Virus record (IMG/VR): IMGVR_UViG_2687453449_000006
Source of the DNA: a virus
Taxonomy: Duplodnaviria > Heunggongvirae > Uroviricota > Caudoviricetes
Reading direction: 5' to 3' (one strand)
Length of the DNA stretch: 22,611 nt
Positions within the stretch are counted from its first letter, which is position 1, and the number at the start of each line of letters is the position of its first letter. The notes under the pieces are model-generated. The model saw only the letters and a list, made by a program, of their open reading frames with translations, was not told the origin of the DNA and did no database searches. The translations under genes were made by a program, and so were the position numbers. Of the stretch, positions 18,749 to 21,592 are shown in pieces.

Positions 18749-18946
18749 GGTGACACCTGCTAACGTATGCTTTTATAAACCTTAGTGGTGGGATATAATT
18801 TTTGTTTAATTTTTATTTAAAAAGACAATTAAGGTCACATTATCTTGAATATACAACAATAATCGTATTGCAATTTTCTTACGCCATAATCTTGAAAGCA
18901 CAAAAGAATACATAAAAAATAAAGACATTAACAAAAAGCATAAAAC

Positions 18947-18975
18947 GAGGCTCATATAAATATAAGAGCCTCCAT
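18947..18975 (-). terminator. Rho-independent terminator downstream of emrE
   Basis: Minus strand reads GAGGCTC-ttatatttatat-GAGCCTC followed by GTTTTATGCTTTTTG (U-rich), about 30 nt after the emrE stop. Confidence 0.5.
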
Positions 18976-19402: not shown

Positions 19403-19705
19403 TCATTGTGTTCCCATTGATGTTCTTTTATATACCCTCAGTACCCGTTTCATCGCGGCACTCTGGCGACACTCCTTAAAAATCAGATTCGTGCTCACCT
19501 TTCCTTCCCGTTCTTCTCTGGTAGCGAACCGGTAATACACCGTTCGCCAGACCTTACCATCAACGACCAGGATTCCTGCCCGCGCCATTTTAGCCGCAGC
19601 CTGATTTATGCTGGTTACGGTTGCACCTGTTACCGCGGCAACGTCCTGTGCACAGAAGCTCTTATGCGTCCCCAGGTAATGAATAATTGCCTCTTTGCCC
19701 GTCAT
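19403..19705 (-). CDS. renD: Ren-like protein (lambda Ren homolog, 100 aa)
   Basis: ATG at 19705; MTGKEAIIHYLGTHKSFCAQDVAAVTGATVTSINQAAAKMARAGILVVDGKVWRTVYYRFATREEREGK... matches lambda Ren as recalled; its start overlaps the end of the P fragment, as in lambda. Confidence 0.8.
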   Translation of the reverse strand: MTGKEAIIHYLGTHKSFCAQDVAAVTGATVTSINQAAAKMARAGILVVDGKVWRTVYYRFATREEREGKVSTNLIFKECRQSAAMKRVLRVYKRTSMGTQ

Positions 19706-19940
19706 ACACTTGATCCTTTCAGTCCGAACTTAGCTTTGATTTCTGCGATCTTCGCCAGAGCCTGTGCACGATTTAGAGGTCTACCGCCCATGACAGGAAG
19801 TTGTTTTACTGGTTCAGGTATCGCCTCACCACGGTTAATTCGCGCGGTCATACAGGACAGTTCATCGGCAGCCTTGCGCCGTAATTCCGCGTCAGTCAGC
19901 GCATTGGCCCGCATGTTCTGGTACAAGTTGGTAACCAACC
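19702..19940 (-). pseudogene. Replication protein P, C-terminal fragment only (~78 codons)
   Basis: ..TNLYQNMRANALTDAELRRKAADEL..TARINRGEAIPEPVKQLPVMGGRPLNRAQALAKIAEIKAKFGLKG..V matches the lambda P C-terminus as recalled; no ATG (the track start is a TTG); homology ends at about 19940. Confidence 0.75.
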
Positions 19941-19948
19941 AGTAAGCA

Positions 19949-20314
19949 ATGGGATATGCCTCTGGTTATGTCTGGTTGAATCCACCATACAGCAATATTT
20001 CCCCTTTTGTGAAAAAGGCAGCCACTGAAAACAAATTCAGCAGTGTGGGATGTGTAATGTTATTACCTGCTGACACATCTGTCGGATGGTTTCATGAAGC
20101 GATACAAACCGCCAGTGAGGTCAGATTCATCACGGCAGGACGACTGGCATTTATTAACCCACTCACCGGGAAACACGTCAGTGGAAATAATAAAGGCTCG
20201 ATGCTCATTATCTGGCACCCATACCCCCGTACACACTGCCACTTTACGACCGTTGATCGTGGAGAGTTGATGGCGTTCGGCTCAAGGATTCTTGCCCGTC
20301 GGGAGGCTGCATGA
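19949..20314 (+). pseudogene. Phage Dam-type DNA N6-adenine methyltransferase, C-terminal fragment (121 codons)
   Basis: GYVWLNPPYSNISPFVKKA... contains the (D/N)PPY catalytic motif at the extreme N-terminus of the frame, with an in-frame stop immediately upstream (19943-19945); the N-terminal AdoMet-binding region is missing. The frame begins with an ATG but is judged a 5'-truncated remnant. Confidence 0.55.
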
Positions 20315-20394
20315 CAACCACGGAATGCATTTTTCTGGCAGCGGGCTTCATATTCTGTGTGCTTATGCTTGCCGACATGGGACTTGTTCAATGA
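20311..20394 (+). CDS. Small hydrophobic peptide (27 aa), translationally coupled on both sides
   Basis: SD GGGAGG (20301-20306) then ATG at 20311, which overlaps the stop of the methyltransferase-fragment frame (ATGA); MTTTECIFLAAGFIFCVLMLADMGLVQ; its stop overlaps the next ATG (ATGA). Too short for the ORF track. Confidence 0.35.
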   Translation: MTTTECIFLAAGFIFCVLMLADMGLVQ

Positions 20395-20606
20395 CACCTC
20401 AGCAGGAAAACGCCCTTCGCAGCATAGCCCGTCAGGCTAATTCTGAAATCAAAAAAGCCAGACAGCAGTTTCCGGATAAAAACGTCGATGACATTTGCCG
20501 TAGCGTACTGAAGAAGCACCGCGAAACGGTAACGCTGATGGGATTCACACCGACTCATTTAAGCCTGGCGATCGGCATGTTAAACGGCGTCTTTAAGGAG
20601 CGATGA
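20391..20606 (+). CDS. Hypothetical protein (71 aa)
   Basis: ATG at 20391 (MTPQQENALRSIARQANSEIKKARQQFPDKNVDDICRSVLKKHRETVTLMGFTPTHLSLAIGMLNGVFKER); the track's longer version starts at a TTG at 20292. Confidence 0.5.
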   Translation: MTPQQENALRSIARQANSEIKKARQQFPDKNVDDICRSVLKKHRETVTLMGFTPTHLSLAIGMLNGVFKER

Positions 20607-20698
20607 ACATGAAAAGCAAAATCATCAGGGAGCTACAGGCTCCTTTTTTATTATTCGCATTCACCCTCAAGCGTATTAACCAACAATTCAGGGATTAA
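20603..20698 (+). CDS. Small ORF (31 aa) with a strong SD, translationally coupled to the upstream ORF
   Basis: TAAGGAG (20594-20600) then ATG at 20603 overlapping the upstream stop (ATGA); MNMKSKIIRELQAPFLLFAFTLKRINQQFRD. Confidence 0.35.
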   Translation: MNMKSKIIRELQAPFLLFAFTLKRINQQFRD

Positions 20699-20704
20699 TG
20701 GAAG

Positions 20705-20923
20705 ATGGCAGACATCATTGATTCAGCATCAGAAATCGAAGAATTACAGCGCAATACAGCAATAAAAATGCGTCGTCTGAACCACCAGGTTATATCTGCC
20801 ACTCATTGTTGTGAGTGTGGCGATCCCATAGATGAACGAAGACGCCTGGCCGTTCAGGGTTGTCGGACTTGTGCAAGCTGCCAGGAGGAGATCGAACTTA
20901 AGAACAAACAATGGGGATTGTGA
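20705..20923 (+). CDS. TraR/DksA-family C4 zinc-finger protein (72 aa)
   Basis: ATG at 20705; CxC-x17-CxxC (..SATHCCECGDPIDERRRLAVQGCRTCASCQEE..) characteristic of phage TraR-like proteins. Confidence 0.75.
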   Translation: MADIIDSASEIEELQRNTAIKMRRLNHQVISATHCCECGDPIDERRRLAVQGCRTCASCQEEIELKNKQWGL

Positions 20924-20970
20924 TGGCCTCAAAGCAGCAAATTTCAACATCGTCCAACTGAGGTGTAAAA

Positions 20971-21249
20971 ATGTTCAGAATCATTTTGCCTAACACCTGG
21001 TACGTCGACCACCACGGCACTCCCTGCAAAATCCTGCGTTCTACCCACAACAAAGTTCACTACATCCGAAAAGGCAGAACATGTATCGCCAGCATGTTCC
21101 GCTTTAATCATGACTTTGAACCTGTGAATAAAGCTGATGCAGATCGGATAGCAGAAGAGATCGAAACGGCAGAACACATTAAGAAGTTACGTGACATGCG
21201 TTCAAAAAGCAGAGGTAACCATGGAATCATACAGCCTCACACTCGATGA
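20971..21249 (+). CDS. Hypothetical protein (92 aa)
   Basis: ATG at 20971 preceded by GAGGTG; no recognisable motif; overlaps the start of the xis-like ORF by 29 nt. Confidence 0.5.
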   Translation: MFRIILPNTWYVDHHGTPCKILRSTHNKVHYIRKGRTCIASMFRFNHDFEPVNKADADRIAEEIETAEHIKKLRDMRSKSRGNHGIIQPHTR

Positions 21250-21592
21250 GGCCTGTCAGTTTCTTAAGATATCCAGACCAACCGCCACCAACTGGATACG
21301 AACAGGCCGCCTACAGGCAACACGTAAAGATCCAACCAAGCCAAAATCTCCTTACCTCACAACACGGCAAGCCTGCATTGCGGCGCTTCAGTCTCCGCTG
21401 CATACTGTCCAGGTGAGCGCGGGTGATGGCATAACAGAGGAAAGAAAATGTCACTCTTCCGCAGAAATGAAATATGGTATGCCTCGTATTCGCTCCCGGG
21501 CGGGAAACGAATTAAGGAATCTCTTGGCACAAAGGACAAGCGGCAAGCTCAGGAGTTGCACGACAAGCGAAAAGCAGAACTCTGGCGAGTAG
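21221..21592 (+). CDS. xisD: Excisionase-like HTH protein (Xis/AlpA family); 3' extent uncertain
   Basis: ATG at 21221 with SD GAGGT; N-terminal [29 protein letters not shown] typical of excisionase-family DNA-binding domains. The frame runs 124 codons and overlaps the int start by about 145 nt, which is long for an excisionase. Confidence 0.5.

What the first reader, a model, noticed from the sequence alone, without database searches (positions are those of the whole stretch)
19949..20923. Chain of four translationally coupled ORFs (ATGA overlaps) ending in a TraR-like zinc finger, including a 27-aa hydrophobic peptide
Start and stop codons overlap as ATGA at 20311-20314, 20391-20394 and 20603-20606, linking the methyltransferase-fragment frame to a 27-aa hydrophobic peptide, a 71-aa protein and a 31-aa peptide; two of these have near-consensus Shine-Dalgarno sequences. 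The TraR-like gene follows 6 nt later. Such tight coupling of very small ORFs is typical of early-left morons such as host-takeover, toxin-like or anti-defense peptides. The two small peptides are too short to be in the ORF track and would be missed by most annotators.
Basis: seen in the sequence. Interest (0 to 1): 0.6.

Follow-up and report, generated by a model that had tools for sequence, protein, structure and literature searches.

The report
Lambda exo-xis gene chain in DLP12
This stretch is the well-known "exo-xis" early gene block of lambda-like phages, stranded without its promoter in the DLP12 prophage remnant of E. coli B/C; the one new point is that the 27-codon hydrophobic reading frame looks like a real, overlooked gene, present in phage lambda itself.

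Summary
ATGA overlaps lie at 20311, 20391 and 20603, and the TraR-like gene starts 6 nt after the 31-aa ORF. Only 8 of 2000 shuffles give three such junctions.

The window is the DLP12 cryptic prophage of E. coli B/C. The chain is the conserved core of the lambdoid exo-xis (pL) operon, cut off from pL by a deletion joining P' to dam'. The block 20311-20900 is 95-99% identical in about 180 phages, including lambda, 434, 21 and Stx phages.
- **71-aa ORF:** lambda orf61 in its intact form. Lambda's copy is frameshifted.
- **TraR-like gene:** 90% identical to lambda Orf73, an experimentally shown RNA-polymerase-binding regulator.
- **31-aa ORF:** it spans the published predicted terminator t2. It shows no protein-level constraint (6 synonymous, 13 nonsynonymous). 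Its first ATG is GTG or GTT in 95 of 196 loci, and the conserved start is ATG 20609 (29 aa).
- **27-aa ORF:** intact in 196 of 196 loci, with invariant ATGA at both ends. It shows purifying selection in its own frame only (11 synonymous, 7 nonsynonymous, P=0.002). It lies under the 5' extensions annotated for orf61, which appear to be artefacts. No paper found describes it.

Verdict: mostly known biology, with a modest new gene call.

The parts
19946..20314 (+). dam' : 3' two-thirds of a phage Dam (N6-adenine) methyltransferase gene. It is a pseudogene fragment. Its left end is the DLP12 deletion junction with P' (minus strand, 19702-19947).
   Evidence: Pfam PF05869 E=4.9e-35, covering profile positions 60-168 of 169. 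PGAP marks it 'incomplete, missing N-terminus' in REL606. The full 185-aa gene is present in phage PhiR30_1.
20301..20306 (+). Shine-Dalgarno GGGAGG, 4 nt upstream of the 27-aa ORF start. It is present only in the dam context.
   Evidence: In the orf63 context there is no good SD, so initiation there would depend on the ATGA coupling.
20311..20394 (+). 27-codon ORF, MTTTECIFLAAGFIFCVLMLADMGLVQ. It is a candidate small single-pass membrane peptide gene. Its start overlaps the upstream stop and its stop overlaps the orf61 start (both ATGA).
   Evidence: Intact in 196 of 196 loci, with an identical peptide in 176. 11 synonymous and 7 nonsynonymous variants, codon positions [5,2,11], P=0.002. The other five frames give P 0.04-0.9. 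Synonymous alleles are the commoner ones (Mann-Whitney P=0.018). Kyte-Doolittle 19-residue window score 2.33. 100% identical in lambda at 31008..30925c.
20391..20606 (+). orf61 family gene in its intact 71-aa form (WP_000188870). Predicted to be a soluble three-helix protein.
   Evidence: PHROG 303 E=4.7e-36. Homologues at 35-48% identity are 69-75 aa long and start at the same Met. In L087 the same ATG follows an unrelated 250-aa gene. AF2 pLDDT 78.5 with three helices. No specific fold match.
20595..20600 (+). Shine-Dalgarno AAGGAG, 8 nt upstream of the invariant ATG 20609.
   Evidence: The CPT annotation of phages 21 and 434 places the RBS and a 29-aa CDS here.
20603..20698 (+). 31-aa ORF (conserved form 29 aa from ATG 20609). 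It is probably translated, but its peptide sequence is not under constraint. It covers terminator t2 and ends next to the orf73 ribosome-binding site.
   Evidence: 6 synonymous and 13 nonsynonymous variants, codon positions [6,6,7], P=0.43. One nonsense and one frameshift allele. Start 20603 is ATG in 101 loci, GTG in 93 and GTT in 2. A review reports a 31-aa ORF found by lambda ribosome profiling, and this is the only 31-aa ATG ORF in that lambda region.
20627..20655 (+). Intrinsic-terminator-like hairpin AGGGAGCUACAGGCUCCUU followed by UUUUAUUAUU. This is the predicted terminator t2 of lambda and Phi24B. The predicted promoter p1 overlaps it.
   Evidence: Pattern scan. It forms in the MFE fold of 20607-20704. 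The sequence is identical to t2 in Bloch et al. 2014, who saw lower mRNA downstream of it in lambda. 2 of 24 sites are variable against 18 of 74 in the rest of the spacer (P=0.14).
20705..20923 (+). orf73 homologue: a TraR/DksA-family C4 zinc-finger protein of 72 aa (WP_000763373).
   Evidence: PF01258 35.2 bits against a cut-off of 24.9. 64 of 71 residues identical to lambda Orf73. Motifs D3-x-x-D6-x-A8 and C35xxC38...C56xxC59 are read from the sequence. It matches solved TraR and YbiI chains. 33 synonymous and 29 nonsynonymous variants, P=2e-5.

Best explanation
Window 19949-20923 is the promoter-distal core of the lambdoid early-left 'exo-xis' operon, preserved in the DLP12 cryptic prophage of E. 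coli B/C.

Gene order (shown):
1. dam' , a truncated pseudogene.
2. A 27-codon hydrophobic-peptide gene.
3. orf61, in its 71-aa native length.
4. A short ORF of 29/31 codons that lies over the predicted terminator t2.
5. orf73, a TraR homologue.

How it works in an intact phage (inferred). The block is transcribed from pL with N antitermination. The two invariant ATGA stop/start overlaps make ribosomes that finish the upstream gene (orf63 or dam) reinitiate on the 27-codon ORF. Those that finish the 27-codon ORF reinitiate on orf61, which has only a weak SD. The three products are thus made together.

The 27-aa product is most likely a single-pass inner-membrane peptide whose sequence matters. 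Selection on the sequence is shown; membrane location and function are inferred. orf61 is a soluble three-helix protein of unknown target. The 29/31-codon ORF is probably translated, but only the act of translation is useful. Ribosomes crossing the t2 hairpin and stopping 6 nt before orf73 would keep transcription and orf73 translation going (inferred).

Orf73 then binds the RNA polymerase secondary channel and shuts down rRNA and r-protein promoters. This was shown for lambda Orf73, which is 90% identical to the protein encoded here.

In this window the deletion has removed pL, N and everything up to the middle of dam. The chain is therefore probably silent or only weakly expressed.
For: **Identity and context**
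- The window is 100% identical to the REL606, E. coli C and ATCC 8739 DLP12 region.
- Pfam and PHROG assignments.
- The block 20311-20900 is 95-99% identical in about 180 phage records, with homology starting exactly at ATGA 20311. There are two unrelated upstream contexts.
- 90% identity to lambda Orf73, whose function is described in PMC9239242.

**orf61 gene model**
- Distant homologues are 69-75 aa long and start at the same Met.
- The same ATG is used after unrelated genes.
- The 5'-extension frame has 3 synonymous and 15 nonsynonymous variants.
- That frame is closed by TGA at 20322-20324 in the majority haplotype.
- Lambda's ATG 31024 is ACG in 45 loci.

**27-aa ORF**
-, as listed under parts.
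- No indel in 106 haplotypes.

**29/31-aa ORF and t2**
-.

**Chain not due to chance**
-.
Against: - No direct translation or protein evidence for the 27-aa peptide was available. Liu et al. 2013 is not held. The peptide was not found in the Sakai RIBOseq supplements or in the full-text library.
- The selection test rests on only 18 variant alleles in a block that is 95-99% identical. The alleles are not phylogenetically independent counts.
- The 27-aa ORF is absent next to distant orf61 homologues and in the L087 arrangement. It is therefore not needed for orf61 expression.
- The peptide has no basic residue and a net charge of -2, which is unusual for a membrane anchor.
- The role proposed for translation across t2 is untested. 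Conservation of the hairpin relative to its flanks is not significant (P=0.14).
- Expression in DLP12 itself is unknown.
Confidence: 0.7

Rival explanations
1. The 27-codon frame is not a gene. The stretch 20311-20390 is the 5' part of a longer orf61, as in current annotations: 61 aa in lambda, 93 aa in Phi24B and many gene calls, 104 aa from TTG 20292 here.
For: - Lambda NC_001416 annotates orf61 from 31024.
- CPT lambda imm434 annotates it from 30994.
- The 93-aa form represents a cluster of 1695 sequences, and the PHROG 303 profile is 101 positions long.
- The frame is open in the window.
Against: - In that frame there are 3 synonymous and 15 nonsynonymous variants, with 11 of 18 at first codon positions.
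- Three different starts are in use. The lambda ATG is ACG in 45 loci. The frame is closed by TGA at 20322-20324 in the majority haplotype.
- Homologues at 35-48% identity have no extension.
- The same Met is used after unrelated genes.
- Published models leave residues 1-23 of the 93-aa form out of the fold statistics.
Confidence: 0.08
2. The 27-codon ORF is translated only as a coupling device that delivers ribosomes to the weakly initiating orf61. The peptide itself has no function.
For: - ATGA is invariant at both ends.
- orf61 has only a weak SD.
- No homologue or family exists for the peptide.
- It is absent next to other orf61 relatives, which are instead coupled directly to the upstream gene.
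Against: A pure coupling ORF should tolerate amino-acid changes. Instead, synonymous changes are in excess (P=0.002), the common alleles are synonymous, and 176 of 196 loci encode the identical peptide. The neighbouring 29/31-codon ORF shows what an unconstrained translated ORF looks like in the same block (6 synonymous, 13 nonsynonymous).
Confidence: 0.17
3. The 31-aa (29-aa) ORF encodes a functional small protein, as the first reader proposed and as the CPT label 'putative secreted protein' implies.
For: - Open in 194 of 196 loci.
- ATG 20609 is invariant, with AAGGAG 8 nt upstream.
- Annotated in phages 21, 434, 1H12 and SfI.
- A review cites lambda ribosome profiling as finding a 31-aa ORF in this region. 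This is the only 31-aa ATG ORF there.
Against: - 6 synonymous and 13 nonsynonymous variants, with a flat codon-position profile [6,6,7].
- Common nonsynonymous alleles: T->I in 18 haplotypes, R->M in 11, S->N in 10.
- One nonsense and one frameshift allele.
- Not hydrophobic enough for a membrane segment or signal peptide (best 19-residue window 0.97).
- The DNA is accounted for by terminator t2, the predicted promoter p1 and the orf73 RBS.
Confidence: 0.15
4. The 27-aa peptide is a type-I-toxin-like or holin-like membrane-damaging peptide, that is, a toxin or host-killing moron.
For: It is short and very hydrophobic. It lies in a region known to affect host survival and lysis timing (PMC8614690).
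Against: - No promoter of its own and no conserved antisense transcription unit. The only minus-strand promoter-like site nearby (20317-20288) straddles the mosaic junction. It therefore cannot be the same site in the orf63 context, where the sequence upstream of 20311 is unrelated.
- It has no basic residues, unlike most type I toxins (own knowledge).
- It is carried by 3144 of 5426 complete E. coli genomes without disruption.
- No sequence family match.
Confidence: 0.1

Closest known systems
Exo-xis region of bacteriophage lambda and Stx phages (orf60a-orf63-orf61-orf73-ea22; Wegrzyn and Donaldson laboratories)
   Same: It is the same DNA. Window 20311-20900 aligns to lambda 31008-30418 at 97%. 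It has the same order orf61 -> t2/p1 -> orf73 and the same position between the recombination genes and xis/int.
   Different: - Here the block is preceded by a dam fragment instead of orf60a/orf63, as in phage PhiR30_1.
- It has lost pL.
- orf61 is intact here (71 aa), whereas lambda has a +1 insertion.
- The literature does not describe the 27-codon ORF and treats that stretch as part of orf61.
F-plasmid TraR / lambda Orf73 (DksA-like RNA polymerase secondary-channel regulators)
   Same: C4 zinc finger, N-terminal DxxDxA motif, about 72 aa, and 90% identity to lambda Orf73.
   Different: The C-terminal 12 residues differ, because the mosaic boundary lies at 20900. Activity of this allele has not been tested. 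It scores below the NCBIfam TIGR02419 cut-off (54.6 against 59.7 bits).
Translational coupling through overlapping stop/start codons (for example trpB-trpA AUGA; own knowledge)
   Same: AUGA overlaps at successive gene junctions. The downstream genes have weak or absent SD sequences.
   Different: Coupling has not been measured here. One coupled partner is only 27 codons long.
Small hydrophobic bacterial and phage proteins of under 50 aa (for example KdpF, AcrZ, type I toxins; own knowledge)
   Same: Similar length, and one hydrophobic helix long enough to span a membrane.
   Different: No sequence similarity to any of them. Acidic with no basic residue. Embedded in an operon and coupled on both sides. 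No partner is known.

Membership tests
TraR/DksA C4 zinc-finger family (lambda Orf73 group) | Pfam PF01258 above the gathering score | tested here: met
   35.2 bits against a cut-off of 24.9. PHROG 54 E=2.8e-25. NCBIfam TIGR02419 gives 54.6 bits, just below its 59.7 cut-off.
TraR/DksA C4 zinc-finger family (lambda Orf73 group) | N-terminal DxxDxA motif and four zinc-binding cysteines (CxxC...CxxC) | tested here: met
   D3-I-I-D6-S-A8 and C35-x2-C38 ... C56-x2-C59, read from the translation. The importance of these motifs is described in PMC9239242.
TraR/DksA C4 zinc-finger family (lambda Orf73 group) | Close sequence identity to the experimentally characterised lambda Orf73 | tested here: met
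   64 of 71 residues identical.
TraR/DksA C4 zinc-finger family (lambda Orf73 group) | Binds the RNA polymerase secondary channel and inhibits rrnB P1 | not testable with these tools
   Shown for lambda Orf73 only.
Lambdoid orf61 family (PHROG 303) | Significant profile match and family-typical length | tested here: met
   E=4.7e-36, matching profile positions 23-93. 18 homologues at 32-48% identity to the query are 69-78 aa long and share the same N-terminus.
ZapA cell-division protein (the name NCBI gives some members) | Pfam PF05164 above the gathering score | tested here: not met
   16.1 bits against a cut-off of 23.8, covering only residues 3-35. No ZapA among the fold matches.
Homeodomain-like DNA-binding fold (proposed for Phi24B Orf61 in PMC8614690) | Significant structural match to homeodomains | tested here: inconclusive
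Phage Dam methyltransferase (PF05869) | Full-length domain | tested here: not met
   Only profile positions 60-168 of 169 are present. PGAP marks it as a pseudogene.
Protein-coding gene (27-codon ORF) | Excess of synonymous change in its own frame only, with no frame disruption among relatives | tested here: met
   11 synonymous and 7 nonsynonymous variants against an expected synonymous fraction of 0.27, P=0.002. The other five frames give P of 0.04 or more. Intact in 196 of 196 loci.
Protein-coding gene (27-codon ORF) | Evidence of translation or of a protein product | not testable with these tools
No hit in the searched supplements.
Protein-coding gene under selection (29/31-codon ORF) | Excess of synonymous change, with no disruption among relatives | tested here: not met
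   6 synonymous and 13 nonsynonymous variants, P=0.43. One nonsense and one frameshift allele.
Rho-independent terminator (t2) | G+C-rich hairpin followed by a U-tract on the transcribed strand | tested here: met
   8-pair stem at 20627-20645 followed by TTTTATTATT. It forms in the MFE fold. It is identical to the ARNold/RNAmotif prediction. Termination activity itself was not tested.
Moron (independent transcription unit inserted in a prophage) | Own promoter and terminator flanking the insert, with variable presence between conserved genes | tested here: not met
   No promoter-like site on the + strand in 19600-21500. The block is a conserved core present in about 180 phages.
Type I toxin-antitoxin | Small hydrophobic toxin ORF with an overlapping or adjacent antisense RNA gene | tested here: inconclusive
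   The hydrophobic peptide is present. No conserved antisense promoter or terminator pair was seen. Toxicity was not tested.

The most novel reading that the evidence does not exclude
Phage lambda and most E. coli lambdoid phages, including Stx phages, carry an unrecognised 27-codon gene between orf63 (or dam) and orf61. It would encode an acidic single-pass membrane peptide made by termination-reinitiation. Lambda's own orf61 is frameshifted, and the published orf61 deletions remove this ORF. The 'orf61' phenotypes reported for lambda (altered prophage induction and lysis timing) would then be due to this peptide rather than to Orf61.
Probability: 0.2. Interest if true: 0.55.

Novelty: new member of a known kind. 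Interest (0 to 1): 0.35.

Why it matters
The exo-xis region influences the lysis-lysogeny behaviour and induction of Shiga-toxin phages, and its small genes are being dissected one at a time.

If the 27-codon ORF is a real gene and orf61 really starts at the downstream ATG, three things follow:
- Published orf61 deletion and frameshift mutants hit two genes at once.
- Structural models built on the 93-aa sequence include 22 residues that are never made.
- Lambda's own orf61 is a pseudogene.

This is a useful correction to the map of a model phage. It is not a new kind of biology. For this window itself, the chain is a stranded remnant in DLP12.

Tried and rejected
- **Liu et al. 2013 lambda ribosome profiling:** not held. 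I rely on a secondary citation.
- **Peptide strings in the literature:** nothing in the full-text search, the Sakai RIBOseq supplements or a UPEC preprint, which has no supplements held.
- **Database homology search with the 27-aa peptide:** tblastn against phages found only near-identical copies.
- **Family searches:** Pfam, PHROGs and NCBIfam gave nothing for either small peptide.
- **Profile-based locus search with distant orf61 homologues:** failed for lack of a conserved stretch.
- **Genome-contig scan for divergent copies:** returned mainly lambda spike-in contamination, so no deeper divergence was gained.
- **Fold search of the 71-aa model:** only generic helical bundles.
- **RNA structure over the 27-codon ORF and the orf61 start:** not better than shuffles (z=+0.52). 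A structure-opening coupling model is not supported.
- **Programmed -1 frameshift fusing the 27-aa peptide to Orf61:** considered and rejected, because reading the sequence shows no X XXY YYZ slippery site.
- **Minus-strand ORF 20244-20378 as the source of the 3-nt periodicity:** considered, because its third positions coincide with those of the 27-codon ORF. That frame scores worse (8 synonymous, 10 nonsynonymous, P=0.04) and contains a stop in the consensus. The ORF also crosses the mosaic junction at 20311.
Full report
**1. The observation**

- A 121-codon frame (19949-20314) ends in TGA inside ATGA at 20311-20314.
- A 27-codon ORF (20311-20394, MTTTECIFLAAGFIFCVLMLADMGLVQ) ends inside ATGA at 20391-20394.
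- A 71-codon ORF (20391-20606) ends inside ATGA at 20603-20606.
- A 31-codon ORF (20603-20698) is followed 6 nt later by a 72-codon ORF (20705-20923).

GGGAGG lies 4 nt before ATG 20311. AAGGAG (20595-20600) is only 2 nt before ATG 20603 but 8 nt before a second ATG at 20609. Three ATGA junctions, each linking ORFs of at least 27 codons, were reached in 8 of 2000 dinucleotide-preserving shuffles. The arrangement is therefore real and not a chance pattern.

**2. Where the window comes from**

The stretch 19700-21450 is 100% identical to E. coli B REL606, E. coli C, ATCC 8739 and many other strains. In REL606 it is the DLP12 prophage next to tRNA-Arg. The gene order there is ybcK, ylcJ, emrE, ren and P' on the minus strand. 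On the plus strand follow dam', a 71-aa hypothetical protein, the TraR/DksA regulator, a DUF4222 protein, a broken excisionase and intD.

PGAP marks both P and the Dam methyltransferase as incomplete, and they meet at 19946/19947. Pfam confirms that the 121-aa frame covers only positions 60-168 of the 169-position Dam profile. The plus strand from 19949 is therefore the tail of a lambdoid early-left operon. Its promoter pL, N and all genes down to mid-dam have been deleted. A simple promoter scan finds no promoter-like site on the + strand of 19600-21500.

**3. What the block is**

The sub-block 20311-20900 is found at 95-99% identity in about 180 phage records. These include lambda, 434, 21, HK630 and many Stx phages. 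It is also in 3144 of 5426 complete E. coli genomes.

Homology to lambda starts exactly at the A of ATGA 20311, which corresponds to lambda 31008, and runs to 20900, which corresponds to lambda 30418. Among 208 fetched loci there are only two upstream contexts. One is the 3' end of orf63 (lambda, 434, 21, Stx phages). The other is the 3' end of dam (this window, PhiR30_1). Both end in the same ATGA.

This is the 'exo-xis region' studied by the Wegrzyn and Donaldson laboratories. The family is confined to Escherichia. Hits in other genera are 48-kb low-coverage lambda contigs, that is, contamination.

**4. The TraR-like gene**

It passes Pfam PF01258 (35.2 against 24.9 bits). It has the DxxDxA motif and the four cysteines, and it matches solved TraR and YbiI chains. 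It is 64/71 identical to lambda Orf73.

Lambda Orf73 has been shown to bind RNA polymerase at the DksA site. It inhibits rrnB P1 with an IC50 of about 50 nM, activates amino-acid biosynthesis promoters and increases phage yield (PMC9239242).

**5. The 71-aa gene and the 5' extensions**

The 71-aa ORF is lambda orf61 in its intact form. Lambda, HK630 and DE3 carry one extra base after the equivalent of 20450. As a result, the annotated lambda orf61 (31024-30839c) consists of three pieces: a 5' extension, 20 genuine codons and a frameshifted tail. A review had already noted that lambda Orf61 'appears to be truncated'.

Public records use three different starts: lambda 31024, CPT lambda imm434 30994, and the ATG equivalent to 20391 in CPT 434 and 21. 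Many gene calls give 93-104 aa. Four observations show that ATG 20391 is the true start.
- (a) Eighteen homologues at 32-48% identity are 69-78 aa long and align from their first residues.
- (b) In L087 the same ATG follows an unrelated 250-aa gene, with homology beginning only at 20409. In Cronobacter-type and metagenomic relatives it overlaps the stop of an MT-A70 methylase.
- (c) In the extension frame, natural variants are 3 synonymous and 15 nonsynonymous, mostly at first codon positions.
- (d) The lambda start ATG is ACG in 45 loci. The frame is also closed by TGA at 20322-20324 in the majority haplotype.

**6. The 27-codon ORF**

I collected 196 loci (106 haplotypes) that span the block. 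The ORF is intact in all 196, and ATGA is invariant at both ends. 176 loci encode the identical peptide.

Of 18 variant alleles in 20314-20390, 11 are synonymous in this frame. The codon positions are [5,2,11], the expected synonymous fraction is 0.27 and the binomial P is 0.002. The other two forward frames give 3/15 and 5/13 (synonymous/nonsynonymous). The best reverse frame gives 8/10 and contains a stop. Synonymous alleles are also the commoner ones, present in up to 40 haplotypes, whereas nonsynonymous alleles are present in 1-4 (Mann-Whitney P=0.018).

The signal is as strong as for the accepted genes in the same alignment: orf61 19/21 (P=0.007) and orf73 33/29 (P=2e-5). The peptide has a 19-residue Kyte-Doolittle window of 2.33, enough for a membrane span, and a net charge of -2.

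It is 100% conserved in lambda at 31008-30925c. There it lies under the annotated 5' end of orf61, so published orf61 deletions remove it too. It is deposited as a 'hypothetical protein' and seen on 981 contigs. It is not annotated by RefSeq or by the CPT re-annotations. It was not found in the searched literature.

It is absent next to distant orf61 relatives. It is therefore a lineage-specific addition, not an obligate leader for orf61.

My reading is that it is a real small gene for a membrane peptide, translated by reinitiation after orf63 or dam and handing ribosomes on to orf61. Selection on its sequence is shown. Translation, membrane location and function are inferred.

**7. The 31-codon ORF**

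In the same alignment it has 6 synonymous and 13 nonsynonymous alleles, spread evenly over codon positions (P=0.43). Several nonsynonymous alleles are common, and there is one nonsense and one frameshift allele. Its first ATG is GTG or GTT in 95 of 196 loci, while ATG 20609 is invariant. The conserved ORF is therefore 29 codons, as annotated in phages 21 and 434.

The DNA is otherwise explained. 20627-20655 is a terminator-like hairpin plus T-tract. It is identical to terminator t2 predicted by Bloch et al. 2014, who also predicted promoter p1 over it. They measured lower mRNA for orf73, ea22 and ea8.5 than for the upstream ORFs in lambda. The 3' end of the ORF carries the orf73 ribosome-binding site.

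A review states that lambda ribosome profiling found ORFs of 7 and 31 aa in this conserved region. This is the only 31-aa ATG ORF there, so it is probably translated.

I conclude that translation is likely but the peptide is not a selected product. Ribosome passage over t2 may favour read-through and orf73 translation. That idea is inferred and untested.

**8. Comparison with what is known, and verdict**

The chain as a whole, the TraR homologue, orf61, t2 and the small downstream ORF are all in the literature or in curated phage annotations.

The 'moron', 'toxin-like' and 'anti-defence' labels are not supported. There is no independent transcription unit and no conserved antisense partner. 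No family match for either small peptide was found in Pfam, PHROGs or NCBIfam; the PADLOC library was not searched.

What is new:
- evidence that the 27-codon ORF is under protein-level selection;
- evidence that the orf61 5' extensions are artefacts;
- the observation that lambda's orf61 is broken, which together mean that 'orf61' mutants need re-interpretation.

In this particular window the genes sit in a promoterless prophage remnant and may not be expressed at all. Interest is modest.

Noticed in passing
Lambda NC_001416 30839-31024 (L003); window equivalent after 20450: The lambda reference, HK630 and DE3 have a 1-nt insertion inside the 71-aa orf61 frame. The annotated 61-aa lambda orf61 is therefore a 5' extension plus 20 real codons plus a frameshifted tail. 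Phages 434 and 21 have the intact 71-aa gene, as do most of the Stx-phage and prophage loci examined.
   Followed up: yes
L213-L226 and others (genome-contig hits): Assemblies of Shewanella, Bradyrhizobium, Pseudomonas, Paenibacillus, Oceanobacillus, Kitasatospora and others contain low-coverage contigs (up to about 48 kb) with the lambda-specific frameshift. These are almost certainly lambda control-DNA contamination in public genomes.
   Followed up: partly
window 20391-20606: NCBI names many members of this family 'cell division protein ZapA'. The only support is a sub-threshold Pfam hit (16.1 against 23.8 bits) over residues 3-35. The name looks spurious.
   Followed up: yes
L231-L234: Distant orf61 homologues (35-48% identity) directly follow an MT-A70 methyltransferase gene, with overlapping stop and start. 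A methylase-orf61 adjacency thus recurs with two unrelated methylase families (Dam here).
   Followed up: partly
window 20698-20721: A 7-codon ORF (MEDGRHH; MKDGRHH in lambda 30620-30597) starts in TAATG at the stop of the 31-aa ORF and overlaps the orf73 start. It may be the 7-aa ORF that a review attributes to lambda ribosome profiling. Another 7-aa candidate exists at lambda 30830-30807.
   Followed up: no
Lambda 30392-30395 (L003/L235): The orf73 stop and the ea22 start also overlap as ATGA in lambda, so the coupling pattern continues downstream in intact phages. In this window the block diverges at 20900, and orf73 is followed by a DUF4222 gene after a 47-nt gap.
   Followed up: no
window 21191-21592: The excisionase-like ORF (HTH_17 at its N-terminus) is called a pseudogene lacking its C-terminus by PGAP. 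Its long reading frame overlaps the start of intD.
   Followed up: no
window 18806-18955 (minus strand): The 49-aa ORF between ybcK and emrE is annotated in REL606 as YlcJ. This shows that RefSeq does annotate some very small proteins in this prophage when a model exists.
   Followed up: no
window 20900: The right-hand mosaic boundary of the conserved block falls inside orf73, 8 codons (including the stop) before its end. As a result, the C-terminal tails of Orf73 differ between phage groups (EEIELKNKQWGL here, EDLELISKQRGSK in lambda).
   Followed up: partly
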